This document shows positions 5,467 through 63,241 of a DNA stretch of 64,000 nt, one piece after another. Location of the stretch: positions 17,298,001 to 17,362,000 of the forward strand of contig OX597819.1 of assembly GCA_951406725.2 (NCBI GenBank). The letters run 5' to 3'. This DNA comes from Octopus vulgaris. Taxonomy: Eukaryota. The notes under the pieces are model-generated. The model made no database searches. It worked only from the letters and a program-made list of their open reading frames with translations, and had not been told where the DNA came from. The position numbers and the translations under genes are program-made. Every line of letters starts with the position of its first letter. The stretch's first letter is position 1.

Positions 5467-5695
5467 GCGGCGAGCTGGCAGAATCGTTAGCACGCCGGGT
5501 GAGATGCTTAGCGGTATTTCCTCTGCCGTTACGTTCTGAGTTCAAATTCCGCCGAGGTCGACTTTGCCTTTGATCCTTTCAGGGTCGATAAATTAAGTAC
5601 CAGTTGCGCACTGGGGTCGATGTAATCAACTTAATTCCTTTGACTGTCCTTGTTTGTCCCCTCTATGTTTAGCCCCTTGTGGGCTAAAAATAAAA
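5467..5695 (+). mobile_element. tRNA-derived SINE, family A
   Basis: A-box-like tggcagaatcgttagc, B-box gagttcaaattcc, central gtcgactttgcctttgatcctttcagggtcgataaattaagtaccag, and tail gccccttgtgggc. Matches more than ten other copies in the window. Confidence 0.9.
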
Positions 5696-6507: not shown

Positions 6508-6892
6508 GTGGAGGCGCAATGGCCCAGTGGTTAGAGCAGCGGACTCGCGGTCACAGGATCGCGGTTTCGATTCCTAGACCGGGCGTTGCGAGTGTTTATT
6601 GAGCGAAAATACCTAAAGCTCCACGAGGCTCCGGCAGGGGATGGTGGTGATCCCCTGCTGTACTCTTTCACCACAACTTTCTCTCACTCTTACTTCCTGT
6701 TTCTGTTGTACCTGTATTTCAAAGGGCCGGCCTTGTCCCTCTCTGTGTCACGCTGAATATCCCCGAGAACTACGTTAAGGGTACACGTGTCTGTGGAGTG
6801 CTCAGCCACTTACACGTTAATTTCATGAGCAGGCTGTTCCGTTGATTCGGATCAACCGGAACCCTCGTCGTCGTAACCGACGGTGTGCTTCC
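6508..6892 (+). mobile_element. tRNA-derived SINE, family B, tail type 1
   Basis: A-box tggcccagtggttag and B-box ggtttcgattcc. Near-identical to the reverse complement of 12628-13015. Confidence 0.9.
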
Positions 6893-7139
6893 CTCCCATA
6901 TATATATGTATGAATATCTATCTATCTGTCTGTCTGTCTGTCTGTCTGTCTTTCTATGTGCTTTATCGCCAGTTTCTGTTATAGAGCTCGGCCATTTTAG
7001 GGAACCGCCTTGAAGGACTTTCTTGAACAAATCAATCACAACACAACCTTCAAGTCTAATATTTATTCAATCGTTTTATTTTTAAATTTTGCAACTAAAA
7101 TAAAGGAAGCAGGGTGAGGGACACACACACAACGACTCA

Positions 7140-9462: not shown

Positions 9463-9694
9463 AGGCGGCGAGCTGGCAGACGCGTTAGCGCGCCGGGCGA
9501 AACGCTTAGCGGTATTTCGTCTGTCGTTACGTTCTGAGTTCAAATTCCACCGAGGTCGACTTTGCCTTTCATCCTTTCGGAGTCGATAAATAAAGTACCA
9601 GTTTCGCACTGGGGTCGATGTAATCGACTTAATCCGTTTGTCTGTCCTTGTTTGTCTCCTCTATGTTTAGCCCCTCGTGGGCAATAAAGAAATA
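9463..9694 (+). mobile_element. SINE family A, full length with 16-bp TSD
   Basis: TSD tatatacaccgataag at 9446-9461 and 9695-9710. Confidence 0.95.
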
Positions 9695-10889: not shown

Positions 10890-11863
10890 TGTGTTCTCTA
10901 TCAATCTGGAGTGGATGAAATACATAGCAGTAATTTAATGGGGTAGAGGGTAACTAATATGCTGCTGTTATTGCAAAATATGGAGACTTGTTAGAAAATT
11001 ACTGTTTTACAATCTCACAACGAGAGATATTCAGCAACAGTACTTAGGAGTAAAGATTGTTTGCCGACATTACATGGCAGTCCTGGTTTAGGACGAATGT
11101 TGCTGTAATTTAGCCCCAGGTGACATCGTCTCCAGCTGGCTATGCAACACGATGTGTGTCCTGTCCTTATCTTTTTGAACAAGGGAATCCCTTGATCGAA
11201 AATATAAGGACACAGATCGTGTCGTATAGCCAGCTGGAAACGATGTCTCATGGGGCCCTGTGCCTAAATGAAATGCAAAATCGTTATATTCTCAGCTCCA
11301 AATGTGACTCTTTACTCCACCTTCATCCCCACCATCACCGTAGGCGTTGTTGAGACCACATTTGTCATCGTTTGTCGTCATTATCGTCGTCGCCGTTGCA
11401 GCTACCACCAATAGCCGCCACCACCAAAGCCAGCCACCCCCTCATCCTAAGTTTCGTCCTCCCTTCTTCCTCCTGCGTGTATGTATTTCCTCTCCTATTT
11501 TCAATTATTCGAACCCCATCTTTAAGGAAGGAGCTGGTTCTTATCAAAGATACACCGCTCCGTCATAAGAATGTAGATGAATAATACAATGCCACATATT
11601 GAACTTGAGAAAAGTCTTGCTTCTCTCTCCTGCTTCACTTACAGATCGCATTTGTAAGGTGCGTGGGGAATTCTATCACTGGTAGCGCAACGTATGATTA
11701 TTTTAGTTTAGCTGTTGTCTGCTGGAAACTTTATCTGGAGATCATATCGTTGGTGACATTATATCGGTCTTCCTGTTTTACTTAACTATTTCTATGGTCT
11801 GTTATTGGCTGTACTTTCAAATTTTGTTGCAGTTGTCTAGTAGTGAGAGGTGAATACAAAGAT

Positions 11864-12109: not shown

Positions 12110-13140
12110 GGTCTCTAATTGGAGACCCCAACACAATTAGTATTACAAATGCCTCTGTATTTTGGTTAACCACTTGTCTATTCTGTTTCTCGCTTTACCT
12201 TGATGTCTCATCGTTGTGGATATAGCATGTATCTTCTTTAGTAAGCACATAGTTGCATCACTCGCTTGAAATCTTGATAATTCTTCAAATTATCTTTTAC
12301 CTTGGTCGAAACTTTAGTCATCCCAGGTATTACAATGTCAATTAGGCCAATTTCTGTCTACTACAGCACAATATCTGGTTTCCTTCTTTCTATAATATGG
12401 TTGCATTAGCTTGTGAAATCCTAAAAGGTTTTAATGTTCTTTGACTCGATTTTATGGAAATGCTGGTGTTCAAACAAATTCTGTGTCCTTGTTAATATAT
12501 ATTCCTCTCACATAATTCCCAGTGGACTATTCACGAGACGCTATAATGTCTTCTCTGATATTTCGTCGGTAATATTTCACTGTATACACTTACCAAATAT
12601 TCTACTCCTTCAATATTATATCCTGCTGGATGGAAGCACTCCGTCGGTTACGACGACGAGGGTTCCGGTTGATCCGAATCAACGGAACAGCCTGCTCGTG
12701 AAATTAACGTGTAAGTGGCTGAGCACTCCACAGACACGTGTACCCTTAACGTAGTTCTCGGAGATATTCAGCGTGACACAGAGAGTGACAAGGCTGGCCC
12801 TTTGAAATACAGGTACAACAGAAACAGGAAGTAAGTGTGAGAGAAAGTTGTGGTGAAAGAGTACAGCAGGGATCACCACCATCCCCTGCCGGAGCCTCGT
12901 GGAGCTTCAGGTGTTTTCGCTCAATAAACACTCACAACGCCCGGTCTGGGAATCGAAACCGCGATCCTATGACCGCGAGTCCGCTGCCCTAACCACTAGG
13001 CCATTGCGCCTCCACTATATCCTGCTACATACTAACGAAATAGTTTTATTTGTATAGATGTTGGTGAAATGTGTTCTAAGATCCACTTCTTGTGCTGTAG
13101 ACATTAATTAACCAGCCTTAACATGCTGACGAGGGTGCGT
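12110..13140 (-). pseudogene. Decayed R4/Dong-like LINE C-terminus (zinc knuckle plus restriction-like endonuclease), split by a SINE
   Basis: The minus-strand peptides TAQEVDLRT, VHWELC, NHIIERRKPDIV, IDIVIPG and NYQDF match the CCHC/REL PD..D region of R2-group LINEs. Many stops and frameshifts. Confidence 0.75.
12628..13015 (-). mobile_element. SINE family B, tail type 1, with 11-bp TSD
   Basis: TSD tatatcctgct at 12617-12627 and 13016-13026. Homologous to 6508-6892. Confidence 0.95.
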
Positions 13141-13670: not shown

Positions 13671-14122
<452 letters not shown>

Positions 14123-14514
14123 TATATATATATGTATATAGATATATATATATGCCCTCATTTGTTGTCTTCATAGTGTTCATTGTATTAACACTATATA
14201 CTTATTGTCATACATGCATTTATAGACACACAGACACTCACACTCACATTTCTCTCTCTCTCGCTCTCTCGCTCTCTCTCTCTCTCTATATATATTTAAC
14301 CGTCTGTTAAATTTTCTTATCTATCACCGTGATAGGATAGCCTATACCGTCAACCAAACCAAGACAAACTGTCCGTTCATTTTTCATTCATTGTTAAACT
14401 CTATCCATTTCCAAGTTATCTCATCTTCAATTCTCCTGATGCCATACATTTTTCAGTCTTAACCATTCCTCCAATCCTAATCTTTTTCCACCAGCAATTC
14501 TCCACTATTTCTTA

Positions 14515-15689: not shown

Positions 15690-16880
15690 TATCTGGTTCT
15701 TTAAGTTCTGTGCTGAAACCTCGCCGAGGTCAACTTTGTCCTTCATCTGATCGATATCAATAGACATAGTAAAATCGATGACTTCGCGTGTGCGCTTCGA
15801 TCTTGGCTACTGGTCTTGCGTGCATAGTTTAGACACCATTACAAAGGGCCGTGGTGGCACAGTCGTTAGAGAGCAAGACAATATTTAGCTATGGTGAGAT
15901 GGCAGAATCGTTGGCAAAAATCAGGAGAAAAGGCTTTAGCGGCATTTCTTCCGACTCTGAGTTCAAGTGCCGCCAGGGTCAGTTTCGCCTTTCTTCCTTT
16001 CGGGGTCGATCAGATAAGTACTAGTTGGGCACTGGGGTTGATGTAATCGACTTAATCCGTCCCTCGAAATTGCTGGCCTTGTGCCAAAGTTTTTAATCAA
16101 CATTTAGTTATGGTCCTTTCGTTCTGAGTTCAAATGTGTCCGAGGTCAACTTTGTCTCTCAGACCTTCGGGGTCGATAAAATAATACATCGGCCAGTCAA
16201 TATAATCAATCAACAGAAGTCGATATAGTCAACAAATCTTGCCCTAAGCAAAAATACTGACCTTGTGCCTCTGTCAGAAACAATTGTTGTTATTATCAAG
16301 ATTGATATTTTGGCTGAAAAGCTGCTAAAGTTGGCTAATACCGCTTACAGTTTTAGTCGGAGAGAAGAAGTTGCGGATTTTCTGGTTCTTAACGTTGTGA
16401 GTTTGAATCCCGCCGAGGTCAGCTTTCCATTTCATCCTTTCCAGGTCGAGAAAATAATATACCAGTCAAGTCCCGGAGGTGATATAATCATTTATTCCCT
16501 TCAATCCAATTTGTTGCTTTTGCCTTTTGTTAGAAGCAGTTACTATTACAAAAGGGAAATGGATTAGCAGAAGCAACGCCGGGCGAAATGCTTAGCGGTA
16601 TTTCGTCTGCCGTTACGTTCTGAGTTCAAATTCCACCGAGGTCGACTTTGCCTTTCATCCTTTCGGAGTCGATAAATTAAGTACCAGTTACGTACTGGGG
16701 TCGATGTAACCGACTTAACCCGTTTGGTTCTCCTTGTTAGTTCTCTCTGTGTTTAGCCCCTTGTGGGTAGTAAAGAAATAGATTAGCAGAAGCGTTAGAG
16801 TCACACTATTTCGGCACTGAGTTCAGATCCTGCTTCGGCCAGTTCTGCATTTCATCTTTTCGGTGTCAAGAAAATTATGC
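15690..16880 (+). mobile_element. Cluster of at least five old family-A-like SINE fragments plus one young 5'-truncated copy (16575-16780)
   Basis: Repeated gccgaggtca.ctt..ctttcatcc cores near 15720, 15970, 16140, 16410 and 16830. The young copy has TSD gattagcagaagc at 16562-16574 and 16781-16793. Confidence 0.8.
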
Positions 16881-19366: not shown

Positions 19367-19634
19367 GGAGAGAGAGAATGGAGAAGCTTCCGCAGCCGCT
19401 CGACCCGCTAGAAAAAACTGCCAGTTAAACTGAAATCGCATACTATATTTTACAAAAGTAACGGGACACTGGTCAATAAAATAACGTGGGATGGTCACGG
19501 CTAAAATGTCTGCTTAGGATTAACAACAGAACAAGATTTTTCTCTCTGTCGTTGACTCTCTCAAACACTCATACACATACACACGTTCGCATACAAAGGT
19601 ACACATATGCATAGACAGTGACGTATATACTTTT

Positions 19635-20302
19635 CTACTCCCGGAAAGATGAAAAGCAAAGTCGACCTCGACAGAATTTGAACTCAGAACGTTAAGACAG
19701 ACGAAATATCTTTTTCTTTACTACCCACAAGAGGCTAAACACAGAGAAGACAAACAAGGACAGACAAACGGATTAAGTCGATTATATTGACCCCAGTTCG
19801 TAACTGGTACTTAATTTATCGACCCCAAAAGGATGAAAGACAAAGTCGACCCAGGCGGAATTTGAACTCAGAACCTAACGGCAGACGAAATACGGCTACG
19901 CATTTCGCCCGGTGTGCTAAAGTTTCTTATTTCTTTATTGCCCACAAGGGACAAAGAGGGATTAAGTCGATTACATCGTCCCCAGTGCGTAACTGGTACT
20001 TAATTTATCGACCCCAAAAGGATGAAAGGCAAAGTCGACCTCGGTGGAATTTGAACTCAGAACTTAGTGGCAGACGAAATACCTATTTCTTTACTACCCA
20101 CAAGGGGCTAAACACAGACCGGACCGACAGATTAAGTCGATTATATCTATTCCAGTGCGTAACTGGTACTTATTTAATCGACCCCGAAAGGATGAAAGGC
20201 AAAGTCGACCTCGGCGGAATTTGAACTCAGAACGTAGCGGCAGATGAAATACCGTTAAGTATTTCGCCCGGCATGCTAACGTTACTGCCAGCTCGCCGCC
20301 TT
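19635..20302 (-). mobile_element. Head-to-tail array of SINE family A (four units)
   Basis: Four copies of the aaagtcgacc..gaatttgaactcagaac core. Only the unit ending near 20300 has the full 5' head. Confidence 0.92.
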
Positions 20303-21802: not shown

Positions 21803-21883
<81 letters not shown>

Positions 21884-21885
<2 letters not shown>

Positions 21886-22390
21886 CGCCAAGCTAACATG
21901 GCAGTCCAGAAAAAAGGACGAATGCTGCCGTTGATTAGCTCCAAGAGGCCATCGCCTCTAGCTAGCTATGTGACACACGAGCCTGTGTCCATTATAACCT
22001 TCGAACAGGGAATTGCCATGTTAGCTTGGCGATAACTATTAATAGTTAGTCTCCTTTAGAGAGACTTAAAAATATTAATATTTCTATTTTTGAAAACCAA
22101 TGGATGTATTCCACTGAATTTAGGTAAATAATCCTTCGAACAGACGGCCAGTAGCGACACCTGCCTGGTTCGGCTGCTCTACATTGATAAGGGGCAAATA
22201 CCCTGAAACTAGTCTGTACATGCCAGACCGGCAAGGTGAAGCGGCTGACCTCCCTTGTTCGAAGGTTATAATGGACACAGGTTCGTGTGTCACATAGCTA
22301 GCTAGAGACGGCCTCTTGGATCCAATCAGCGGCAGCATTCTTCCTATTTTTCTGCACTGCCATGTTAGCTTGGCGATAACTATTAATATT
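21884..22390. mobile_element. Fold-back element with ~125-bp inverted arms enclosing a hammerhead motif (Penelope pLTR-like)
   Basis: 21884-22010 is the reverse complement of about 22250-22379. The terminal tgccatgttagcttggcgataactattaata is also directly repeated at about 22014-22044. The element is flanked by (TA)n. Confidence 0.75.
22158..22238 (+). ncRNA. Type I hammerhead ribozyme motif, U3-A8 core variant
   Basis: taca-TTGATAA-gggg caaata ccct-GAAA-ctag-TC-tgta, with extended stem I cacctgcc.ggtt.ggc / gcc.gaccggca.ggtg. Confidence 0.7.
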
Positions 22391-22392
22391 TC

Positions 22393-22443
<51 letters not shown>

Positions 22444-25525: not shown

Positions 25526-25557
25526 TGATCGAAGCTTTCATGTGTTAACATGTACCT

Positions 25558-25756
25558 CCTTTCGACGATTGTATTTATTAAAGGGACTTTGGCGAACAAA
25601 ATATGAAAAAGTTCGGAATTACAGATGCCACAAAATTTTCTGCCCTTATCCGCACAGAATTTAATAAAGGGCAGAAAATTTTGTGGCATCTGTAATTCCG
25701 AACTTTTTCATATTTTGTTCGCCAAAGTCTCTTTAATAAATACAATCGTCGAAAGG
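25558..25756. repeat. Near-perfect inverted repeat with 90-bp arms and a 19-nt loop
   Basis: 25558-25647 pairs with 25667-25756 with one mismatch (G:T). Confidence 0.95.
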
Positions 25757-26357
25757 TCCTACAGGTGTTTACACTGGAAACGACACACCTTTCACTCATA
25801 CGAATAGTGACTAATATAGATAACCCCTCGATTTCCCAAAAAGTTTTGTTATATTTCACCCCAATAGTCAAAAGATTTTCTTATAATTCCAAGAACTACT
25901 ACCCATTCCAGCGTTGCCTCTCATCTCGCCCGACTCTTCCTCCTTTTCTCTCTCCACTTCCCTTTCTCTACAGTAAACACAATCGAACACACAGACACAG
26001 ACCTCTCACCTCACAGCTGTCAGTTTTCTGACATCTACCCATCCACAAACACAATCACGCATTCAAACACACACATACACACATTATGACAGTTATATAC
26101 AGTCACACACACAGGCACTCATTCATAAAAGAAATCAATTAAACCCACCATTCTTTTGACCTGCACCCTCTCACCTTACTATTCTTATGCCTCCCTCCTC
26201 CTACTTCGTTTGAACCCTTGAACCTTTAGATCCTTCTAGATTCTTCTACATTCAGCCACTCTGACGTCACTCCTTATAAACAGACACTCATTATCGCCAC
26301 GGGCTCCTTGAGAGCAGTCAGCTAAAAGTTTTTTTTGCATTTTGATGTCGACATAAG

Positions 26358-27599: not shown

Positions 27600-28974
27600 T
27601 GTGAAAGGTGACATTCCAACACGTTTTCCTTGAAAATCACTCTGTGGAAAGTCTATTGCTACCATTTTAATGTTAAAACTGAAAAGGGAAGAAAATGGAA
27701 GAAAATTAAATACACTTTCGTAATTCGATGCTTTTATTTCCAGGAAGGTAAAAAAAAAAAGCTGTACAGAGAGCAAAAAGATATGTTTAGTGATGCTGAT
27801 GGTGGCATAGCTGAGCGGACTCTCCTTAAATGGTTTGTTAAGTTTCAGACAGAAAATTTTGATCTGGACGTGCGTCGTTGAGCGATCGAAATAATCCTGG
27901 TCACACGACAAGAGGCATTGCAGAGAAACTCTACATATCTCGTATATGAGCGTTCCAAGACATCGAAAAAGGGAAACGTGGACGGCTATGAGGTTTGGAT
28001 CTCTCATAATTTAATCGAAACAATTTAGTAGACGGCATTTTCATCTGTGTTTGCTAGCTCAAACTGAACGAAAATGGCCCATTTCTGAAAAGAACAATAT
28101 CAGGTGATGTAAAATGGATTGTTTAAAACAATATGGAACAGAAAAGGTAAAAGCAATAGAAACGAACCACTTTTAATCCTTCCAAGAGCTGGTCAGTATC
28201 CGAAGCAGGTGATGCTTTATATCTGGTGAGATTGGAAGTGCATTGTGTATTAGGAACTCCTTGCAAAATGACAGACATTGAATTCAGACAATTATCGTTC
28301 TCAGTTGGACCCATGAAAGGGAGCAATCGATGGAAAACATCCAGAATTGACCAATGGGAATGGTGTCGTTTTCCTTCAGGGCGGCGCTGGTTCGTATGTT
28401 TCCTTCGTGACCTGGCAGAAATTGGCACAACATCCACCTGACTTTCTACCTTCGTATTACCATTTATTTTGAGTTCTGCAAAATTCTCTTAATGAGAAGA
28501 ACTTCAATTATTTGGAAGACTGTAAAAAACATTTAGAGAAGTTCCTGACCAAGAAAGATGCCAAATCCTGGGAGGTTGGGGTCATGAAACCGCCTCGAAG
28601 ATGACGAAGGTTAGCGGAATATAAGGGGACATATACCTATTTCTTTATTACCCACGAGGGGCTAAACATAGAGGGGACAAACAAGGGGACATACATAGGT
28701 ATTAAGTCGATTACATCGACCCCAGTGCGTAACTGGTACTTAATTTATCGACCCCGAAAGGATGAAAGGCAAAGTCAACCTCGGCGGAATTTGAACTCAC
28801 AACGTAATGACAAGCGAAATACCGTTAAGCATTTCGCCCGGCGTGCTAACGTTTCTGCCAGCTCTCCGCCATCGTATAAGGGGACATATACCGTTGAATA
28901 AAGCTATGTACAAGTAATGAAATAGTGTTATGAATTTTACTGGAGAAACGGTGCGAACTTTTGTTCCAATTCCA
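27600..28974 (+). mobile_element. Decayed mariner transposon, interrupted by a family A SINE
   Basis: ERTLLKWFVKFQTENFDLD, ISGDVKWIV and PDFLPSYYHLF are mariner transposase motifs. A TIR-like aacttttgttccaa lies near 28960. The left end is uncertain. Confidence 0.8.
28638..28874 (-). mobile_element. SINE family A with 18-bp TSD
   Basis: TSD tataaggggacatatacc at 28620-28637 and 28875-28892. Confidence 0.95.
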
Positions 28975-30455: not shown

Positions 30456-31269
30456 CGGAGCTAACTTCTTACAGTACAATGTTATAGATTTCTAACAACT
30501 TTTGAAGCTACAACTCTTGAGGAAAATAGATCGGTTTAACAACTGATGTATCAAGATTTCAACTTAAATGGATCTCGTCAGCTTTTCTCAGATCGCTTAA
30601 CACTCGTGGATTTTATCTGTATCCCATAATGATTATGTTACTTTGAGTCGATGTAGAACATTTCATTTGGTGGAGTATATTTCGTAATTATTTTGAGATA
30701 TTGATTCACAAACCATAAAGTATTTGATCTAATTACTCGTAATTTGACAGCCAAGATTATAATGCAAATGATCCATGGATATTTTGATGAGTTTGCAAAA
30801 GAAACAAAAAGAGATAGACTCAGTGACGAGTGACGTTCGGTAAATGATAAAGGCAAGGCTGGGAGTCGGCTTTGTGCTTTTCTTTTTATTTCAAAATGAA
30901 GCATATTTCTAAGCCTTCTATCATGGATATAAGCCAATGAAATAAATCTGTACAGAATCGATTCAATAAAATATAGAATAAACTGCTTAATTGCCTTCTA
31001 AAATCCTACCTTGTCTTAAAAAAAGAACTATTAGAGAACGTGCGCCTTGATGTAGAAAACTGTGGAATAGTCAAAGGCTGAATGCTTTTACAAACAAATT
31101 TACTCGTTTGGGCTTCGTCTCAACGACAGCAACAACATCAAGAAAAACAATAACGACTTCACCATTATCTTCACCATGTATAAATTATGTTAGAAAGTAT
31201 AGGAATCGTTACAGCGTCAGATAAAATGTCTTATTCGTTCCAGCTCTTTGCGCTCTGAACTCAAATACT

Positions 31270-31500
31270 TATTTCTTTACTACCCACAAGGGGCTAAACA
31301 CAGAAGGGACAAACAAGGACAGACAAACGGATTAAGTCGATTTTATCGACCCCAGTGCGTAACTGGTACTTATTTAATCGACCCCGAAAGGATGAAAGGC
31401 AAAGTCGACCTCGGCGGAATTTGAACTCAGAACGTAGCGGCAGACGAAATAATGCTAGGCATTTCGCCCGGCGTGCTAACGTTTCTGCCAGCTCGCCGCC
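31270..31500 (-). mobile_element. SINE family A with 10-bp TSD, inside an older SINE remnant
   Basis: TSD ctcaaatact at 31260-31269 and 31500-31509. Confidence 0.92.
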
Positions 31501-32620
31501 TCAAATACTGACGAGGCGCTGGTGGCGGCCAGGTTAATCAACAGATGACGGGATTATTACATCCCAGTTGCAAGTCGATGGGTTTGCAATCGTCATAAGA
31601 GCTGGCTACAGCACAGCGAGGTTTCCTCCGACCGTGCATTGAAAAACGGTTTAACGGAAAGTAAGGAAATCTTTGCGACTCTGTTCAAGAAACTGGATAT
31701 TTGGAAAAAAAAAATGTTTGGGCAGAATAATAAGATGAGGGCGGCGAGCTTGGCAGAGTCGTTAGCACGTTCGGCAGAATGGTCAGCAGGGTCTCTTGCA
31801 TCTCTATACGTTCTGAATTTCAAGGCCACTAAGCTCAGCTTTGTCTTTCATCCTTTCGGGTTGATAACATAATGTATCAGTCAAGTGCTTTGGATGTTTC
31901 ACTCACACTCTTGCAATGGTGGTTTCGATCTCTGGGCCGAGTGGTGTGTTAAGTTCTTGAGCAAAAAACTTCATTACACGTTGTTCCACTCCACTCAGTT
32001 TTAAATGAGAGATCTTACGACGGACCGGGGTCCTGTCCAGCGGTGTATATATTGTGATTCCGGTCACTCATACTCCATGGAACCCTGGAAACCGACTCCT
32101 ATGACGCCCAAGACCCGACACAGCAACGTCCAGGTGTTAGCTTTACCTTTTACTTTCGTATATTTATTGAATATCTTCTATTGAATCGATTGGAAGGGCC
32201 CCAATATTTTGACAGGAAATTATGTTATGGATGCCGGAAGGATGGAAGGAAAGATGACCTCTGCAGAAATGTCACTTCCGTGAGAAGGAGCAAAAACGAA
32301 TTATGATCGAATTGTTGGCGATCTCAACACAGACGTTTAAACCATTTAGAGATTTTTGAAGTTGGAAAGAAACGCCAAGGTGTCAAAATATTAAAAACAC
32401 CAACAACTAGATGTAGAGTAAAGAGGCGGTGGCGGAGGAGGAGGAGTTACTAGTTACGTAAAAGTTTTGAAATAACTATTTCTTTCTATTCTTGGAGAAA
32501 ATCTAACGGCAGCTGTTCTAGATTTTGATCTTTGTAGACTCAAGGAGAGAATTGTGAGGAAAGGAATTATATCCATCCAGATAATATAGTATAAACTATA
32601 CCGTGTGTGAGTGAGCGTGC

Positions 32621-36102: not shown

Positions 36103-36910
36103 GTTTTATTGGGGAGAGGGCCAATCGATTAGATCGAACCCAGTACGCAACTGGTACTTAATTTACAGACCCCGAAAGGATGAAAGGTAAAGTCGACCTC
36201 GGCGAAATTAGAACTTAGAACGTAACGACAGACGAAATACCTATTTCTTTAATACCCACAAGGGGCTAAACACAGAAGGGACAAACAAGGACAGACAAAC
36301 GGATTAAGTCGATTATATCGACCCCAGTCCGTAACTGGTACTTATTTAATCGACCCCGAAAGGATGAAAGGCAAAGTCGACCTCGGTAGAATTTGAACTC
36401 AGAACGTAACGGCAGACGAAATACCGCTAAGCATTTCGCCCGGCGTGCTAATGTTTCTTATTTCTTTATTGCCCACAAGGGGCTACACACAGAGGGGACA
36501 AACAAGGACAGACAAAGGGATTAAGTCGATTACATCGACCCCAGAGCGTAACTGGTTCTTAAGTTATCGACCCCGAAAGGATGAAAGGTACTGTCGACCT
36601 CGGCGGAATTTGAACTCAGGACGTAACGGCAGACGAAATACCGCTAAGCATCTCGCCTGGCGTGCTAATGTTTCTTATTTCTTTATTGCTCACAAGGGGC
36701 TACACACAGAGGGGACAAACAAGGACAGATAAAGGGATTAAGTCGATTACATCGACCCCAGTGCGTAACTGGTTCTTAATTTATCGACCCCGAAAGGATG
36801 AAAGGTACTGTCGACCTCGGCGGAATTTGAACTCAGAACGTAACGGCAGACGAAATAGCGTTGAGCATTTCGCCCGGCGTGCTAACGATTCTACCAGCTC
36901 GCTGCCTTTT
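36103..36910 (-). mobile_element. Head-to-tail array of SINE family A (four units)
   Basis: Unit junctions near 36240, 36457 and 36674. Only the last unit has the 5' head. Confidence 0.92.
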
Positions 36911-37651: not shown

Positions 37652-37757
37652 TTGGTGTCGAGCAGGCTCCTGATCAAATTTTTCACAGCTATAAGCATTC
37701 CATCTTTATAGCTATTATACTAGACCTGATTCTCTATCTATCTATCTATCTATCTAT

Positions 37758-37857
37758 CCCCCCCCCCTTTTTTTAATCCCTCCCTTTTTTTTGTCCTTTT
37801 TCTTTCCTTTTACGATCCCTTTTAATCGAAAACCACCACTCTCTTTTTTTTTACCCC

Positions 37858-37915
<58 letters not shown>

Positions 37916-38129
37916 GTCTGTCTGTCTGCCTGCCTGTCTGTCTGTCTGTCAGACTGTCTATCTATCTTTCTGTCTGTCTGACTGTCTATCCCCCGCCTTT
38001 TTTTGTCCTCTTTCTTTCCATTTACGATCCCTATTAATCGAAAACCAAACCCCCTTCTTTTAGCCCCCCCAAGCTCTACCTTGTAATTTTGTCCTGTCTG
38101 TGTGCAGCCCTGTGTGGCCTAAAGAAACA
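37758..38129 (+). mobile_element. 3' UTR fragments of the Tx1-clade LINE within (TATC)n
   Basis: tttacgatccct.ttaatcgaaa and aagctctaccttgtaattttgtcctgtctgtgtgcagccctgtgtggcctaaagaaaca match 58250-58465. Confidence 0.88.
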
Positions 38130-38781: not shown

Positions 38782-38850
<69 letters not shown>

Positions 38851-38857
<7 letters not shown>

Positions 38858-39144
38858 ATCACATGACCGACCAGTCCATAAGATGTAGTTACACATCGCT
38901 GGTCACAATGCGTTCGCATTGTTTTAGCCTTCGAATGACGCCACCCCGCTGGCTAAGCGAGCAGGCCAACAGAAGAAAGAGTGGTGAAAGAGTACAGCAG
39001 GGATCACAACCCCCTGCCGGAGCCTCGTGGAGCTTCTATGTGCTTTCGCTCAATAAACACTCACAACGCCCGGTCTTGGAATCGAAACCGCGATCCTACG
39101 ACCGCGAGTCCGCTGCCCTAACCACAGGGCCATTGCGCCTCCAC
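38851..39144 (-). mobile_element. SINE family B, tail type 2
   Basis: Reverse complement of 13817-14122. The 3' end abuts (TA)n. Confidence 0.92.
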
Positions 39145-39146
39145 AA

Positions 39147-42916: not shown

Positions 42917-43697
42917 CACACACACACACTCACACATTTATACGTGTGTGTATATAAATATGTATATACAAGATCCCCGATTTATAAACAAAAAATACTA
43001 ATTACTTTTTAACCTTTAAAAACATCGGTTTTGACAATTTGAACAGCGCTGTTAATAACATTAACACCTACAAGTATACACATTTTGCCCAACGAAGAAA
43101 CGAAGCCAATTTTGAGTAGGAAAATGTTTCTAGTGACAAACGGAACTGTCAGAATATTCTTCCTTAACCTTTTTGTCAAGAGAGGAATTTTCTCTTTAAA
43201 TTATTAAGTTCCGAGAGCCAACAAGGTAAGAATTCACAAATCACTGCTTGTCTAAAAGAACCGTGTATTTTCTATTGCCCTCAAAGCAACTACTGGAGAT
43301 AGCACAGGCTAACCTGTCGAGTAATATGTTCTCCATCGATGGGGTATAACTTGCAGAACCATATTCCTGAGTTTCAAAACGACGGACGGGTGAGAAAAGC
43401 ATATGGAGGTATATACATACTCAAATCTGTATACACTTGCTCAAAACTGCAACACATGTAGCTGTAAAATCCATTCAGGAGATTTATGTTCGGAAAGTAC
43501 TTGAAAAAAACAGAAAATAACAAATGTGAGAGCAGCGACAGCAACAGTAGTCCAAAGAATGAAATATTTTCTAAACAACATGGGCCTGAAGTTTTATAAA
43601 CAATGGAAGACATCGCTTCGTTCTCAATCCCTGAAGCCGAGTGTAAGTGAATCCTATCCTCGCAGCACCACAACACTGTTATGGAATTATATAAATA

Positions 43698-44968
43698 CGA
43701 GGGACGTTCAATAAGTAATGCCCCTGACCCACTTCCCATAGCAGTAGAGCAACGACACTTGGCACAGTTATTAGTCTTTTCCTACATAGGAACTACTCAG
43801 AGTTATGCATTTCTCCCATCGTTTGATACAGCTCTGGAGACCGTTTTTGTAGAAGACCCCAGCTTGGTCCTCCAACCACGACGTGACTTCAGAAATCAAG
43901 GCTGCATCATCTGGGAAACGCTTTCCTTTCAAAATCAACTTCATGGCTGGGAAGAGGTGAAAATCAGAGGGTGCAAGGAGAGGAGTTCATAGCTGCACGC
44001 CTGTGCTTCTGATCTGGCGACACGCGAGTTGTGGACCGGAGTGTTGTCCTGCAGGAGGAGGATGCCTTTGCTGATCTTGCCCCGCCTCTTGATTTTGATA
44101 GCTTCTCATAATTTCCTCAAAAGTGAAGCATAATAGGCTCCTGTAATTGTGGTACCATTTGCCAGGAAATCTGTCATCACTACTCCGTCCTGGTCCCAGA
44201 AGACTGTGAGCATAACCTTGTCAGCGGCGGGCTGCACCCTTGCCTTCTTTGGAGGAGGTGAGTCACGATGCTTTCACTGCATTGACTGGGCTTTGGTCTA
44301 TGGATCATAGTGATGGACCCAGGTTTTATCCTGTGTGATCAGTCTTTTGAAAAATTTTGACTCATCTTCTTGGCAACATCTCCAAATTCATCCTCGAGCA
44401 CTCAACGCGTTCTTGCTTCTGGAAAGGTGTGAGCAACCTGGAAATCCATCTGGCAGACACCTTTTGCATATGCAAATGGTCATGAATGATAGTTTCCACA
44501 GACCCGGTACTAATCTTGACCTTATGGGCTATTTGGCGAATAGTTATGCGTTGACCTTCCAAAATGGCAGCCTCAACTTGACGGACAGACGTCTCATCAA
44601 CGGCAGAAGGGGGCGACCAGATCTGGGAGCTGTTTCCACAGAGTTCCGACTATGTTTGAATTCACAATGCCAGCGTTTTACAAGGTCATATGATGGGGCA
44701 TCATCACCATAAGTTACTTTCATTTCATCAAAAGTCTCCCGTGGTGTGCGTCCTTTCAAATACAAAAACCAGATCACTGCTCGACACTCAACAGGCTCCA
44801 TTTCACACTTGACTCAGTTCAAACACCTGTAAATCAGAAACCACAATTAGTTCAGAACTGTAATTCGCCACTTAATCTATAGACGTATAAATAAGTGCAC
44901 ATGCAAAATTTCAGCTAGATCAAACAACTGCAAGTGGGTCAGGGACATTACTTATTGAACACCCCTCG
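43698..44968 (-). mobile_element. Full-length (~1.27 kb) mariner with a frameshifted transposase
   Basis: TA TSD and TIRs cgagggacgttcaataagtaatgcccctgaccc / gggtcagggacattacttattgaacacccctcg. Peptides MEPVECRAVIWFL..RSGRP, KVSARWI, QDKTWVHHYDP, KVMLTVFWD and LLQDN. Confidence 0.95.
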
Positions 44969-44978
44969 TATATGGGGG

Positions 44979-47889: not shown

Positions 47890-49245
47890 TTTATTGTGAA
47901 CTGTAGAGGTTCAGTATGTCATCCACTGACCCGCTTCCTTGTGGATATAATCAGTCCATTAGCAGGAAAGTCAGCATCGTACGTGAAGAATTCCCCCCTC
48001 TTCACAAAATTGATCAAGGATACCCCCATTGAATCCAACAAGATGATGAGTCTAGATTAGATAAGCCTGTTCAATAAAATCCCAACTGGTGAAGCACTAT
48101 CGGTGATACAAGAAAAACTAGTGGCAGACATCATCTAAAAGAACGCACTAGTATACCAATAAGAAACTTGATGGAAATGTTGACCTTCTGTGTAGAAAAT
48201 ACCTACTACAGTATGGACACTAATATATATCGACGAGAGGAGGGTTTAGCTATGGGTTAGCCATTATCACCGATAATAGCCAACATATACATGGAATACT
48301 TTGAGAATTTGGCTTTAGGATCAGCACCACTAACATTAATACTATGGCTACGATATGTTGATGACACCTTTATAATCTGGCCCCACCAGGAAGATGTCAA
48401 AGTGCTGTTAGATCATGTGAACTCAATAAAGCCATCCATACAGTTCACAATGGAAAAGGAAAAAGACAATCAGCTGACATTCCTGGACGTATCAATAACA
48501 CGCACCAAGTATGGATTCAGGACATCCGTATACCGCAAGCCGAACTTTACTGGATGTTACCTCAACTTCAATTCCCAACATCCGTACAGTGTAAAGAGAG
48601 GGACTGCTCTGTGCCTAAGACAACGTGCAAAGAATATAAGTAGCGATCGTGATACACAACACGAAGAAATGATCAAGCTCAATAACGATCTGTTAAGCAA
48701 CAACTACCCCAAAAACATACTATCCACTCCAATTATGAAGAAGAGGGAGGATGATAAACTGTCCACATTCTGTCTACCCTATTTGAAAGGCCTCTCTGAA
48801 AAGATACAAAAAATATGCAGCCCATATGACATAAAGACAGTATTCAAAAGTAATACAACACTTCGCAAATATCTCCTTCGATTAAAACCACCAATAGAAG
48901 AGAATACGACTAAGGACTGCGTGTACTCCATCCCATGCAGCTGTGGTAGGTTATACAAAGGCGAAACATACCGCCCCTCAAAATAAGGGTAGACGAACAT
49001 TGCAGGAAACGAACATCGCAAAGCTGTGACACAGGGAGATATTGATAAATTCAGTACAGCTGATCATGTATGGAAAAATGGAGACCACCTCCCCCTGTGG
49101 GATGAAGTTAAAATAATAGAAAGAGAATACTACTGGAAATTATGAAAACGGAAAGAAGCAGCACATATGCTAGGACACAACAACCTCCTAAGCAGACTGA
49201 GTGCAGATATGAGCAGCATCTGGGAACCGGCATTAAGGAAGTATA
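47890..49245 (+). pseudogene. Penelope-like element ORF (RT plus GIY-YIG endonuclease), 5'-truncated with stops
   Basis: MMSLD*ISLF, GLAMG*PLSPIIANIYME, WLRYVDDTF, QFTMEKE..LTFLDV, VYRKP and VYSIPCSCGRLYKGET. Confidence 0.95.
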
Positions 49246-51505: not shown

Positions 51506-51921
51506 TACTCTTTACTCTTTTACTCTTTTAATTGTTTCAGTCATTTGACTGTGGCCATGCCGGAGCACCGCCTTTTTAGTCGAGCAAATCGACCCCCATG
51601 ACTTATTCTTTGTAAGCCTAGTACTTATTCTATCGGTCTCTTTTGCTAGCTTACGGGGATGCAAACACACCAGCATCGGTTGTCAAGCAGACACACAACA
51701 TGCACACACAACATACACACACAAACATACACACACACTCACATATATACATATATACGACGGGCTTCTTTCAGTTTCCGTCTACCAAATCCACTCACAA
51801 GGCTTTAGTCGGCCCGAGGCTATAGTAGAAGAAACTTGCCCAAGGTGCCACGCAGTGGGAATGAACCCGGAACCATGTGCTTGGTAAGCAAGCTACTTAC
51901 CACACAGCCACTCCTGCGCCT
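51506..51921 (-). mobile_element. tRNA/CORE-type SINE, family D (internal microsatellite, (gagtaaaa)n tail)
   Basis: Head aggagtggctgtgtggtaagtagcttgc, B-box gggttcattccc, and CORE-like ggcaccttgggcaag. Matches 52573-53004. Confidence 0.9.
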
Positions 51922-52128
51922 ATGTGTATGTGTGCATGTGTTTACACTCACTAATACATATTTATATATACACATATATACATATATATATGTATAATAA
52001 ATACTCACATCCTTACACATGCAGACACACGTACGAACGTACACTAACACACGCACAGAGACGCACACACACGGACACGTAAAAACATATGGAAGTGTGT
52101 CTGAAGAGAGCATGGCAACGATAGAGAT

Positions 52129-52572: not shown

Positions 52573-52813
52573 TACTCTTTTACTCTTTTACTCTTTTACT
52601 CTTTTACTTGTTTCAGTCATGTGACTGTGGCCATGCTGGAGCACCGCCTTTAGTCGATCAAATCGACCCCAGGACATATTCTTTGTAAACCTAGTACTTA
52701 TTCTATCAGTCTCTTTTTTGCCGAACAGCTAAGTTACGGGGACTTAAACACACTAGCATCGGTTGTCAAGCGATGTTGGGAGGACAAATACAGACACACA
52801 AACACGCACATGC

Positions 52814-52845
<32 letters not shown>

Positions 52846-53004
52846 ACGACGGGCTTCTTTCAGTTTCCGTCTACCAAATCCACTCATAAGGCTTTGGTCG
52901 GCCCGAGGCTATAGTAGAAGACACTTACCCAAGGTGCCACGCAGTGGGACTGAACCCGGAACCATATGGTTGGTAAACAAGCTACTTACCACACAGCCAC
53001 TCCT
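52573..53004 (-). mobile_element. SINE family D
   Basis: Homologous to 51506-51921. Confidence 0.9.
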
Positions 53005-53350
53005 ACGAGGATGCTTAGAATGGCACTCAGTGTCTCCTGGATGAGTAATACAACAAACGCCGACTTACACCAGGGACTACCAAAAGTAACAGTGATGAGG
53101 CTAGCTGGATATTGCATCAGACACACCGATGAATTTGCTAACAAGCTCGTGCTCTGGCAACCAATGGAAGGAAGAAGCAAGAGAAGAAGGAGGAAGACGA
53201 CGTGTATCGACAACTTGCTGGAGGATACTGGTATGGAAGGGGTACAGGAGCTGCGGACCATTATGGAAGAGCGAGATGAATGGGGAAAACGTGTAGAAAC
53301 AGTCTTGGGTTGTCCTATGGGACGACCTAGATGAGAGAGAGAGAGAGAGG
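53005..53350 (+). pseudogene. RTE-clade LINE 3' end
   Basis: RMLRMALSVSW..MRLAGYCIRH..KLVLWQP..GRSKRRRRKTTCIDNLLEDTG..MEERDEW, followed by (GA)n. Confidence 0.85.
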
Positions 53351-54144: not shown

Positions 54145-54252
54145 TATATACATGGATACACACATATATGTATGTATGTATATATGTATACATACATTCA
54201 TACATACATACACACACACACACATATATATATATATATTTATATATATATA

Positions 54253-54520
54253 TCACGTGATCACGTGACCGACCAGTCCATCAGATGTAGTTACACATCG
54301 CTGGTCACAAAGCGTTCGCATTGTTTTAGCCTTCGAATGACGCCACAGAAGAAAGAGTGGTGAAAGAGTACAGCAGGGATCACCACCCCCTGCTGGAGCC
54401 TCGTGGAGCTTTTAGGTGTTTTCGCTCAATAAACACTCACAACGCCCGGTCTGGGAATCGAAACCACGATCCTACGACCGCGAGTACGCAGCCCTAACCA
54501 CTGGGCCACTGCGCCTCCAC
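54253..54520 (-). mobile_element. SINE family B, tail type 2, with a ~26-bp internal deletion
   Basis: Matches 38851-39144 but lacks cccgctggctaagcgagcaggccaac. Flanked by (TA)n. Confidence 0.92.
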
Positions 54521-54673
54521 ATATATATATATGGTTCCATGTTCCGTCCTACAGCATAGCAAAATGGAGAGGTGAATTCTTTAATAAGCCGATCAAAAGT
54601 ATACACATACATACATACATACATAAATAAATACATACGTACATACATATAGAATACATATATATACATATGT

Positions 54674-56619: not shown

Positions 56620-56771
<152 letters not shown>

Positions 56772-56788
56772 ATCTATCTATCTATCTA

Positions 56789-56867
<79 letters not shown>

Positions 56868-58465
56868 GTCGTGGGACGCTGGACCGACGGCCCGGTTGAG
56901 TTGCTCGGGGTCTGGTTTGGTCCGGACCTCCAAGTGGAGAAGAACTGGAACGAGATAACGAGTAGGGTGGTCACTCTCGCCCGGCAATGGGCCGAGAGGA
57001 AACTGTCCCTAAAAGGTCGAGCGGAGGTGGCGAACACGTACATCGCGTCCGTCATCTACTACCGCCTGACCGTCGTACCTTGTCCCGACCCTACCATCAC
57101 CAAACTACAACGCATCCTCTTTCGCTTCTTGTGGAAAGGATGCGTCCCGATGGTCAGGCGATCCATTTGCTGTCAACACCCGTTAAAAGGAGGGCTGGGC
57201 ATGCCGTGGTTGATGATGCGCAGACACGCGCTGAGACTGCGGCATCTCTGGCTCTATGTAGACGACGGTGAACAGGTGTGGTCGCCGTTTGTGAGGCACG
57301 CTTTCCCGCAGCTCGTCTCCATGACCGAACTGCAGTCGTGGATCAAAAAGAGGCCGAGGAAGGGCGAATGGCACCGCGAGTGTCGCGTTGCTCTCAAGCA
57401 ACTCTGCCGTCCTGGGTCGACCTTAAGTGACTTCAACACAACCAAAGCATTCTATAGGGGTTTAGTGGAGGGGAGGTACGACGACGAGCTCGGGGCGAAC
57501 CTGGACGTCGACGAGGAGTACCTGACCCGCCTGTTCAGGACGACTTTCGGGCCAGGGCCCATGGACAACTTCCAGAGATCCCTGGCCTGGCAGTGCTACC
57601 GAGAAGCGCTACCCGTTCGGGATAAGCTCTACAGACACGGCTCGAGAAACACGGGGCCGACCTGCCCGAGATGCGGTCAGAGCGACGAAACCGTTCTGCA
57701 CGCACTCGTTCAGTGTCCAACAATTTCCGACCTGTGGGCTTATGTCGAACAACTGCTGTCACGTGTGGGACGAGTCGGTTTATCAGCTGAGTCTATCGTC
57801 AATATTGTCACGCCTCCTTCCTTCAAACGGGAAGGAAGAGCTATTTTCATCATCCTTGTGGCTATGGCGAAAGAATGTATCTGGTGGACGCGTCTGAAAG
57901 GATTGGAGACAAACACTTTCCTCTCTGGTCAATCTCTCATCAACTTCTTCAAGTACCACTTGAAAAGGAAAGTGAGAGTAGAGAGGCAAGTTTTGTCTAG
58001 CGAATGTTTTAAAAAAAGATGGGTGAATGTAGCAAGAATGGCACGTATGAATGACGAAGCCACCTTGAGCATAGTCCTATGAACCCAGAAATCGAAAACA
58101 GAGAGTTGCTTATTTGCAAAAAAAAAAAAAAAAGAAATATAAAATGTGACTTCATTGACCGAGGTTACCGTGGTCTTTTCCGTAGGCTTTTCTTTCCACG
58201 GGTAAACCTCACCTGTCCTCCCCTTTACACTTCATATTGACATTTCTGTGATAACGATCCCTATTGATCAATTTTTTTTTCCTCTCCCCCTTTTTTTTAA
58301 CCCCCCTTTTTTTTGTCCTCTTTCTCTCCTTTTACGATCCCTTTTGATCGAAACTCCCCCTTCCTTTTTTTTTTTTTTTTTTTTTTTTTTAAACCTTCAA
58401 AAGAAAAGCTCTACCTTGTAATTTGTTCTATCTGTGTGCAGCCCTGTGTGGCTAATAAAGAAACA
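56868..58465 (+). mobile_element. 5'-truncated Tx1-clade non-LTR retrotransposon inserted in (TATC)n
   Basis: An uninterrupted GC-rich ORF followed by a pyrimidine-rich 3' UTR ending aataaagaaaca, with (tatc)n on both sides. Confidence 0.9.
56871..58082 (+). CDS. ORF2 C-terminal part of an L1/Tx1-type LINE (end of RT, thumb, zf-RVT CCHC); no true start
   Basis: LLGVWF, W..RKLSLKGRAEVAN, FRFLWKG, P.KGGLGMP, W.CYREALPV and CPRCGQSDETVLHALVQC. 403 codons without a stop. Confidence 0.85.
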   Translation: MGRWTDGPVELLGVWFGPDLQVEKNWNEITSRVVTLARQWAERKLSLKGRAEVANTYIASVIYYRLTVVPCPDPTITKLQRILFRFLWKGCVPMVRRSICCQHPLKGGLGMPWLMMRRHALRLRHLWLYVDDGEQVWSPFVRHAFPQLVSMTELQSWIKKRPRKGEWHRECRVALKQLCRPGSTLSDFNTTKAFYRGLVEGRYDDELGANLDVDEEYLTRLFRTTFGPGPMDNFQRSLAWQCYREALPVRDKLYRHGSRNTGPTCPRCGQSDETVLHALVQCPTISDLWAYVEQLLSRVGRVGLSAESIVNIVTPPSFKREGRAIFIILVAMAKECIWWTRLKGLETNTFLSGQSLINFFKYHLKRKVRVERQVLSSECFKKRWVNVARMARMNDEATLSIVL

Positions 58466-58508
58466 TATCTATCTATCTATCTATCTATCTAATCTATCTA
58501 TCTATCTA

Positions 58509-58554
<46 letters not shown>

Positions 58555-58575
58555 ATATCTATCTATCTATCTATG

Positions 58576-58741
<166 letters not shown>

Positions 58742-58802
58742 ATCTATCTATCTAGTTATCTATCTATCAAATTACAAATATATACATATATACACACACA
58801 CA

Positions 58803-59647: not shown

Positions 59648-59833
59648 GAGTGGCAAAATCCTTAGTACGCCGGACAAAATACATAGCGGCATTTTGTCCG
59701 TTCTTACGTTCTGAGTTCAAAGTCTTTTATCCTTTTGGGGTCGATAGAATAAGCACCAGTTGTATGCTGGGGTCGATGTAATCGACTATCCTTCTCCGCC
59801 AAAGTTTCAAAACTTGTTTCTATAGTAGACAGG

Positions 59834-59835
<2 letters not shown>
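59648..59835 (+). mobile_element. Old family-A-like SINE
   Basis: tacgttctgagttcaaa..atccttttggggtcgata..ctggggtcgatgtaatcgact. Confidence 0.7.
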
Positions 59836-59875
<40 letters not shown>

Positions 59876-60985: not shown

Positions 60986-61147
60986 AGAAAATATCACTCA
61001 CATGCTAGATAGTCGAGGACTATTGTCGAAGAAACTAGATGAAGTTGCCGTGCAGTGAGATTGAACCCAGAATTCTGTGGTTATGAAGAGGACTACATAA
61101 CCTCACAACTATACCCTACACACACACGCACGCACACACACACACAC

Positions 61148-61194
<47 letters not shown>

Positions 61195-61195
<1 letters not shown>

Positions 61196-61361
61196 ATACG
61201 ATGAACTTCTTTCAGGTTTCCGTTCACCAAATCCGCTCACAAAGTCTTGGTCGGCCGAAGCTCGAGTAGAAGACACTGGCCCAAGCTGCCACGCTGCAGG
61301 AATGAACCCAGAACCTTGTAGTTGGGTAGTAAACTTCTTACTACACAGCCACGCCTGCGCC
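61195..61361 (-). mobile_element. SINE family D head, degenerate
   Basis: ccaaatccgctcacaaagtcttggtcggcc..gaagacactggcccaag..acacagccacgcctgcgcc. Confidence 0.8.
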
Positions 61362-62005
61362 TCTCTCTCCGTTCCTCCCTCTCTCTCTCACTCTCTCTTT
61401 TTGTGTATGTATATATATATATATGCACCCCCGCACCCACGCAACCACACTCACACATATACATATGCATGTATATACATGTGTCTGTATGAAACGTACG
61501 TATGTATGTTCATGAACCTCCACCCACCGCACATACGCTTCTAGATGCTTATACACAATATATCTCGCGAGTAGTTCAGTTTTATAGATCCTGCTAAAAG
61601 AAAACGAACGTTGTGATATGGTAGCGTCGTCGTATCAAACCGTTCATCTCCCGCTGACAACCTCATTAACTATTGAGATATTTATCACGATTCGTGCATC
61701 TTCCTTTCTAGAAAACATGAAATATATTTCCCAACATTTGCTTATTAACTTAGATTAACTTAGATTAGGTAGATTAGCTAAAATTATAGCTAATAAACAA
61801 CACTGGTCGTAGGATACTTATGATGTATAAGAGAGAATAATTAATAATTAAAAAATGTACTTATTAAATGTGAAAACTAATTAATCCTCATATATTGAGT
61901 GAATGCCATTTAATTTTTAGGTATCTAGTCTCTAGTGCAAGTTTTTGTTTACCTGGTAAAAAGAATATATATACATACATATATATATGTATATATGTAT
62001 GTATG

Positions 62006-63009: not shown

Positions 63010-63241
63010 GGGTGGCGAGCTGGCAGAACTGTTAGCATGCCGGGCGAAATGCTTAGCCGTATTTCGTCTGCCGTTACGTTCTGAGTTCAAATTCCGCCGA
63101 GGTCGACTTTGCCTTTCATCCTTTCGGGGTCGATTAAATAAGTACCAGTTACGCACTGGGGTCGATATAATGGACTTATTACCTATGTCTGTCCTTGTTT
63201 GTCCCCTCTATGTTTATCCCCTTGTGGGTAATAAAGAAATA
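63010..63241 (+). mobile_element. SINE family A with 17-bp TSD
   Basis: TSD ggtacttcttaaactag at 62994-63010 and 63242-63258. Confidence 0.95.

What the first reader, a model, noticed from the sequence alone, without database searches (positions are those of the whole stretch)
58414..58465. The dominant SINE's 3' tail is homologous to the Tx1 LINE 3' end
Seen: the LINE end ccttgtaatttgttctatctgtgtgcagccctgtgtggctaataaagaaaca aligns with the SINE A end ccttgtttgtcccttctgtgtttagccccttgtgggtagtaaagaaata. Both keep a 4-bp stem-loop (agcc/ggct versus gccc/gggy) before taaagaaa. SINE A TSDs are 10-18 bp and it has no poly(A). Established: SINEs share 3' ends with stringent partner LINEs (usually CR1, L2 or RTE), and Tx1 partners are rarely reported. 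Inference: SINE A is mobilised by a relative of this Tx1 family with different target specificity, since SINE A is not in (TATC)n.
Basis: partly seen in the sequence, partly recalled or inferred. Interest (0 to 1): 0.8.

Follow-up and report, generated by a model that had tools for sequence, protein, structure and literature searches.

The report
Octopus SINE with L1/Tx1-type tail
An abundant short repeat in an octopus-like genome ends in about 50 bases that match the end of a long L1/Tx1-type jumping gene, so it likely borrows the copying enzymes of a not-yet-found relative of that element, a tail-sharing partnership rarely described for this group in animals.

Summary
The homology is real. 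The claimed 4-bp hairpin can form but is no better than shuffles and is slid by one base between LINE and SINE. The LINE is L1-group with Tx1-like traits (inside (TATC)n, zf-RVT); strict Tx1 membership could not be tested. SINE A has TSDs of 10-18 bp and no poly(A), and 0 of 11 ends lie in (TATC)n. New here: 6 of 11 ends sit at two fixed sites in the head of another SINE copy, forming arrays, and 3 of 5 others resemble one of those sites; the same junctions occur in public contigs. Best reading (0.6): a sister L1/Tx1 family that recognises this tail mobilises SINE A. That partner was not found, because no genome was held. L1-clade tail sharing is known in maize and Chlamydomonas; the one Tx1-SINE pair I found rests on shared targets. 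New variant of a known kind.

The parts
58414..58465 (+). LINE copy 1, terminal 52 nt shared with the SINE A tail
56868..58082 (+). LINE copy 1, C-terminal 404 aa of ORF2 (open, zf-RVT), 5'-truncated
58083..58465 (+). LINE copy 1, 3' UTR of 383 nt; no homology to the SINE outside the last 52 nt
   Evidence: 599 of 1000 shuffles as good
56620..56867 (+). (TATC)n target array, 5' side
58466..58768 (+). (TATC)n target array, 3' side
37988..38129 (+). LINE copy 2, 3' UTR end only, followed by (TATC)n; tail 47 of 53 columns identical to copy 1 and 38 of 53 to the SINE tail
37756..37857 (+). piece of the same LINE 3' UTR without the terminal tail, between microsatellites
9464..9694 (+). SINE A, full length, 16-bp TSD
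16576..16780 (+). SINE A, 5'-truncated, 13-bp TSD read by eye, inserted in an older diverged SINE
   Evidence: host score 54; best of 1000 shuffles 34
28638..28870 (-). SINE A, full length, 18-bp TSD
31270..31500 (-). SINE A, full length, 10-bp TSD; the copy used for laying contigs
63011..63241 (+). SINE A, full length, 17-bp TSD
5467..5694 (+). SINE A with damaged 3' end, no TSD found
19612..20300 (-). array of four SINE A units joined at the two head sites; the whole array has an 18-bp TSD with one mismatch (read by eye)
36125..36906 (-). array of three SINE A units plus a last unit without the A tail (SINE B type), joined at the same two head sites
59651..59875 (+). SINE B: same head and body, different tail ending in (ATT)n, no match to the LINE ends; internal control
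   Evidence: scores 14 and 10

Best explanation
SINE A carries a roughly 50-nt tail homologous to the 3' end of an L1/Tx1-type LINE and is likely copied by a sister family of that LINE, which would recognise the tail instead of a poly(A) and would cut at sites resembling a site in the SINE's own head. Shown: the tail homology, its sharp limit to the terminal module, SINE B with the same head and body but another tail, TSDs of 10-18 bp, no poly(A), different flanks for LINE and SINE, and recurrent junctions at two head sites. Inferred: the tail was gained by a template switch from LINE RNA; ORF2p binds it and primes reverse transcription at a nick; insertion into a SINE head, with the cDNA joining the homologous upstream host sequence, gives the head-to-tail arrays. 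Speculative: SINE A has no T4 run, so read-through RNA from arrays would carry head sequence behind the tail and could pair with the target, reinforcing self-insertion.
For: Significance and end anchoring; two LINE ends carry the tail; 77% over 52 nt lies within the 72-95% over 35-61 bp accepted for bivalve pairs (PMC11481361). TSDs are 16, 13, 18, 10, 17 and 18 bp; 4 of 6 exceed the RTE range of 7-15 and all fit the L1 range of 7-18 quoted in PMC6007223. 6 of 11 ends lie at two exact head sites; 3 of the 5 others match the second site at 6 of 7 bases against a background of 215 of 119,682 (p about 6e-8, motif chosen after seeing the junctions). The same junctions occur in public contigs: loose end at 31451 in X16 (5 contigs), X19 (6) and X1 (1628); 184-nt back-joints in X19, X4 and X1 (1, 4, 30 contigs); 217-nt back-joints in X16 and X1 (1, 8). 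Sister ORF2 families exist, and O. vulgaris has 13 recently active L1-Tx1 families (PMC13282606). No T4 run in 6 of 6 stretches scanned.
Against: The partner with a SINE-like tail and SINE-like targets was not found: none of the 18 loose ends listed shows a LINE UTR at the tail border (610 more were not shown). The hairpin is not significant. Tx1 membership is indirect. Only two LINE ends were seen, so LINEs of other clades were never compared. Two units of the second array share private changes, so some array growth is local duplication, and junction counts overstate independent insertions.
Confidence: 0.6

Rival explanations
1. The (TATC)n-targeting family itself mobilises SINE A in trans, and the site is set mainly by pairing of the RNA 3' extension with the nicked DNA, so LINE and SINE land in different sequences.
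For: It is the only tail-bearing LINE seen. It is young and widespread: 19 listed runs under five organism labels hold 0.93-1.00 of its words, 3 of them flagged as possible sources. A correlation between 3' repeats and TSD start is reported for RTE elements (PMC6007223).
Against: 0 of 11 SINE ends lie before TATC repeats; tail identity is only 77% although SINE A bodies are 2.7-8.0% from their majority; in the crocodilian case SINEU shares the target of its Tx1 partner (PMC4494074).
Confidence: 0.13
2. The tail is shared by descent but this LINE group is not the mobiliser: both took it from a LINE of another clade, or the LINE captured a SINE end.
For: Tail exchange among SINEs is documented (PMC5786205 abstract; PMC4824008). 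RTE, CR1 and Dong-R4 families are also active in O. vulgaris. L1-clade tail pairs are rare, 3 of 58 (PMC3472496).
Against: TSD lengths favour the L1 group over RTE; only 1 of 11 junctions starts with T, the plant RTE signature; SINE A has no terminal microsatellite; SINE B shows that the tail is the swapped module on the SINE side.
Confidence: 0.2
3. The match is convergence or chance, driven by a polyadenylation-signal-like end and TG-rich composition.
For: LINE copy 1 and several SINE copies contain AATAAA near the end; the match is short and the hairpin is weak.
Against: The match survives removal of the last 14 nt; LINE copy 2 lacks AATAAA yet matches; both ends coincide to the base; SINE B's tail does not match.
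Confidence: 0.04

Closest known systems
SINEU with Tx1-Mar in crocodilians (PMC4494074; passages and section 16 read)
   Same: A SINE thought to be mobilised by Tx1-clade LINEs, with target preference for another repeat.
   Different: SINEU has snRNA heads and poly(A); the link rests on shared targets, ages and 5' heads. Here the link is a shared 3' tail without poly(A), and the targets of the SINE and of the LINE seen differ.
Maize ZmSINE2/3 with LINE1-1_ZM, and Chlamydomonas SINEX-3_CR with L1-1_CR (PMC3472496; passages read)
   Same: L1-clade LINE sharing a 3' end with a SINE, read as stringent recognition.
   Different: Plants and algae; the algal pair ends in poly(A); the monocot hairpin has compensatory changes (PMC3747384, passages), whereas the hairpin here is not significant.
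Kibi, Koshi and crocodilian microsatellite-targeting Tx1 families (as described in PMC4494074)
   Same: LINE inserted in a microsatellite.
   Different: Their targets are (TC)n, (TTC)n, (TTCC)n and (TTTC)n; here (TATC)n. No tree with these families could be built.
Mollusc SINE-LINE pairs and tandem SINEs in bivalves (PMC11481361, section 13 and passages; PMC4824008, passages)
   Same: One head and body with exchangeable tails; tail identity in the same range; tandem SINE arrays.
   Different: Partners named there are CR1, CR1-Zenon, L2 and Nimb. Their arrays have 3'-truncated units or repeated TSDs; here units keep the whole tail and start at two fixed head sites.
Octopus tRNA-derived SINEs of Ohshima and Okada 1994 (seen only as a citation)
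   Same: Abundant octopus SINEs; SINE A may be one of them.
   Different: Not checked: the paper and Repbase/SINEBase entries were not available.

Membership tests
L1 group LINE | ORF2 with APE endonuclease, RT and C-terminal zinc-binding region, closest to L1 among reference RTs | tested here: met
   window ORF has zf-RVT; relative P0002 (41% identical) has endonuclease, RT and zf-RVT and scores 1e-72 to L1 ORF2p against 6e-29 to R2 (only L1 and R2 types were hit). The endonuclease is absent from the truncated window copy
Tx1 clade | RT phylogeny with named Tx1 families | not testable with these tools
   no labelled Tx1 protein was returned; the quick tree of 28 rows has no Tx1 or L1 reference
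Tx1 clade | insertion into a specific repeat such as a microsatellite | tested here: met
   2 of 2 3' ends are followed by (TATC)n and copy 1 is also preceded by it; n is small
Tx1 clade | ORF1 with RRM/zf-CCHC instead of Transposase_22 | tested here: inconclusive
   no ORF1 in the window; 4 of 8 proteins scanned, all distant lancelet or sea-cucumber relatives, carry zf-CCHC; PMC5203782 links such domains to Tx1; they lie outside the 14-row group that holds the window ORF
tRNA-derived SINE | short, non-coding, dispersed, with TSDs | tested here: met
   231 bp, about 4% of the window, TSDs of 10-18 bp
tRNA-derived SINE | tRNA-related head with A and B boxes | tested here: inconclusive
   no ARAGORN or Rfam tRNA match; a loose recalled A-box pattern matched and the B-box pattern did not; the head folds with z -2.43
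MetaSINE superfamily | 66-bp Meta domain after the head | not testable with these tools
   resemblance is recalled only; motif searches in supplements and full text found nothing (one file unsearched in each of 50 and 51)
stringent SINE-LINE pair | shared 3'-terminal sequence | tested here: met
stringent SINE-LINE pair | conserved 3' stem-loop | tested here: inconclusive
   3-4 bp stem, none of 5 tails beyond z -1.55, register offset by one
stringent SINE-LINE pair | same insertion signature in SINE and LINE | tested here: not met
   0 of 11 against 2 of 2 before TATC repeats; so this LINE family is probably not the direct partner
stringent SINE-LINE pair | tail-dependent trans-mobilisation | not testable with these tools
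   needs a cell assay
RTE-mobilised SINE | TSD 7-15 bp, starting with T in the plant pattern, microsatellite-like 3' end | tested here: not met
   4 of 6 TSDs over 15 bp, 1 of 11 junctions starts with T, no terminal repeat; animal RTE patterns vary, so this is not a full exclusion

The most novel reading that the evidence does not exclude
One of the most abundant octopus SINEs is moved by a Tx1 family through stringent, poly(A)-free tail recognition, and that family targets the SINE's own head, so the SINE manufactures its own landing sites and grows SINE-derived tandem arrays through read-through RNA that pairs with the target.
Probability: 0.3. Interest if true: 0.72.

Novelty: new variant of a known kind. 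Interest (0 to 1): 0.5.

Why it matters
Ohshima's survey found 3 L1-clade pairs among 58 tail-sharing SINEs and left open whether ancestral L1-type enzymes recognised a specific tail or any poly(A) RNA. An animal L1/Tx1 pair without poly(A) would give a direct test. It would also name a likely motor for part of the octopus SINE load (11.6% of the O. vulgaris genome) and a route from SINE to tandem array by self-targeting.

Tried and rejected
No whole genome was held, so no genome-wide LINE search was possible. A tail pattern matching 7 SINE and 2 LINE ends in the window found 0 loci in viral contigs and 0 in bacterial/archaeal genomes. A looser pattern gave 5 metagenome loci, none with any blastn or tblastn similarity to the window or ORF2; treated as chance. 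The ORF2 alignment found no relative among 165 metagenome candidates. Laying contigs on a SINE copy listed no partner LINE. The low head depth in X16 and X19 is not used as evidence, since contig depth is no copy number and this copy has changes near 31452. Atlas searches gave only generic names. The careful tree did not finish; only the quick tree is used. The hairpin as a significant structure and homology beyond the last 52 nt were tested and not supported. Earlier scan notes: nothing for this genome or this SINE. Ten paper searches showed no octopus SINE-Tx1 pair; Repbase, SINEBase and subscription papers are not covered, and the supplement of PMC13282606 was listed but not read.

Full report
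Setting. The window is microsatellite-rich animal DNA. Named protein hits point to an octopod: an Argonauta hians protein 62% identical to the window ORF and a short hit in an Octopus bimaculoides model. No whole genome was held, so the analysis rests on the window, protein searches, public contigs and papers.

The LINE. 56868-58082 is an open frame of 404 aa with a zf-RVT domain, followed by a 383-nt UTR ending at 58465, with (TATC)n on both sides. Full-length relatives carry endonuclease, RT and zf-RVT; among solved structures P0002 is closest to L1 ORF2p (1e-72) and far from R2 (6e-29). The window ORF groups with four proteins at 62-75% identity with support 100 in a quick tree of 28 rows that holds no named Tx1. 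A second 3' end at 37988-38129 is also followed by (TATC)n. Microsatellite targeting is typical of several Tx1 families (PMC4494074, passages), so I call it L1-group and Tx1-like; clade membership is not proven. The family is young: 19 of 24 listed runs, under five organism labels, hold 0.93-1.00 of its sampled words, three of them possible sources of this DNA.

The SINE. SINE A is 231 bp and covers about 4% of the window. Bodies of 12 copies are 2.7-8.0% from their majority. TSDs are 16, 13, 18, 10 and 17 bp for five dispersed copies and 18 bp with one mismatch around the first array; the 13-bp and array values are read by eye, and none was found for the copy at 5467 or the second array. There is no poly(A). 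A tRNA origin is likely from general knowledge of such SINEs but was not shown. SINE B shares head and body and has another tail ending in (ATT)n.

The homology. The LINE's last 52 nt align with the SINE tail at 40 identities (77%); copy 2 aligns at 38 of 53. All 11 intact SINE ends beat 2000 dinucleotide shuffles, and the two LINE ends are the top two of 3980 non-SINE windows. The match survives removal of the last 14 nt (4 and 2 of 5000 shuffles), does not extend upstream (599 of 1000 shuffles as good), and is absent for the SINE B tail. This identity and length are within the range accepted for bivalve pairs (PMC11481361, section 13). The hairpin is the weak part: none of 5 tails folds better than z -1.55, copy 2 keeps three pairs, and the two stems are offset by one column. 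Read with a one-base loop difference the stem changes look compensatory, but that is an alignment choice, not a test.

Targets. None of 11 SINE ends is followed by TATC repeats, against 2 of 2 LINE ends. Six of 11 are followed by SINE head sequence starting at one of two fixed points (AGAAAC at position 15, GGTATTT about 33 nt further on), which builds the arrays at 19612-20300 and 36125-36906. A seventh lies in an older diverged SINE. Three of the five non-array ends match the second site at 6 of 7 bases; background 215 of 119,682, p about 6e-8, with the motif chosen after seeing the data. Public contigs show the same junctions: tail joined to the second site in X16 (5 contigs), X19 (6) and X1 (1628), 184-nt back-joints in X19, X4 and X1, and 217-nt back-joints in X16 and X1. 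X1 and X4 may be the window's source; X16 and X19 bear other organism labels. Only the best supported rows were shown (516 joints and 610 loose ends were not). Two units of the second array share private changes, so arrays also grow by duplication or multimer copying, and the junctions are not all independent.

Mechanism. Most likely (0.6) SINE A gained the tail of an L1/Tx1-type LINE by template switching, and a sister family with other target preference copies it by target-primed reverse transcription. TSD lengths fit the L1 range better than the RTE range quoted in PMC6007223 (passages). O. vulgaris has 13 recently active L1-Tx1 families (PMC13282606, first third and passages, which mention no partner or tail). 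The absence of T4 runs suggests read-through RNA that could pair with head targets; this is untested. Rivals are trans-mobilisation by the TATC family itself (0.13), a tail shared through a third element (0.2) and chance (0.04).

Prior art. Three of 58 tail-sharing SINEs had L1-clade partners, in maize and Chlamydomonas (PMC3472496 and PMC3747384, passages and one section). The one Tx1-SINE pair found is SINEU with Tx1-Mar, inferred from targets, ages and heads, with poly(A) tails. Mollusc papers name CR1, CR1-Zenon, L2 and Nimb partners. A Repbase-wide SINE-LINE comparison has no occurrence of Tx1 or octopus in its main text (PMC5786205). PMC8967140, PMC5203782 and PMC5753468 were seen as passages only. 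Ten searches showed no octopus case, but Repbase, SINEBase and the 1994 octopus SINE paper were out of reach, so prior description cannot be excluded. Three earlier scan notes from other genomes describe similar ideas; they are unchecked and not counted as support.

Verdict. Real homology, plausible but unproven partnership, with an added self-targeting pattern. New variant of a known kind; interest 0.5.

Noticed in passing
window 19612-20300 and 36125-36906: SINE A arrays whose units keep the full tail and start at two fixed sites of the SINE head; the same junctions occur in public contigs.
   Followed up: yes
window 31250-31520: 33 contigs of X1 join tail plus 7 target-like bases directly to a SINE head, which may be repeated insertion at the same target or TSD-separated dimers.
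   Followed up: partly
window 31410-31500: The SINE head folds into a long hairpin (z -2.43); both self-insertion sites lie within it.
   Followed up: partly
window 59651-59875 and 15893-16184: SINE B: same head and body as SINE A, other tail with (ATT)n; its partner LINE is probably different.
   Followed up: partly
window 6508-6896, 12628-13015, 13816-14154, 38820-39145, 54221-54521: A third SINE-like family with one head and two different tails.
   Followed up: no
window 51506-51922, 52581-53007, 61129-61362: A fourth SINE-like family with an internal microsatellite.
   Followed up: no
window 48261-48986: 241-aa frame with the C-terminal part of an RT domain, just under the Pfam cut-off; looks Penelope-like from recall, unrelated to the L1-group LINE.
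   Followed up: no
window 11113-11256, 21861-22405, 25536-25780, 43695-44971: Palindromic or terminal-inverted-repeat elements, MITE-like.
   Followed up: no
window 37756-37857: A tail-less piece of the LINE 3' UTR just upstream of LINE copy 2, between microsatellites.
   Followed up: partly
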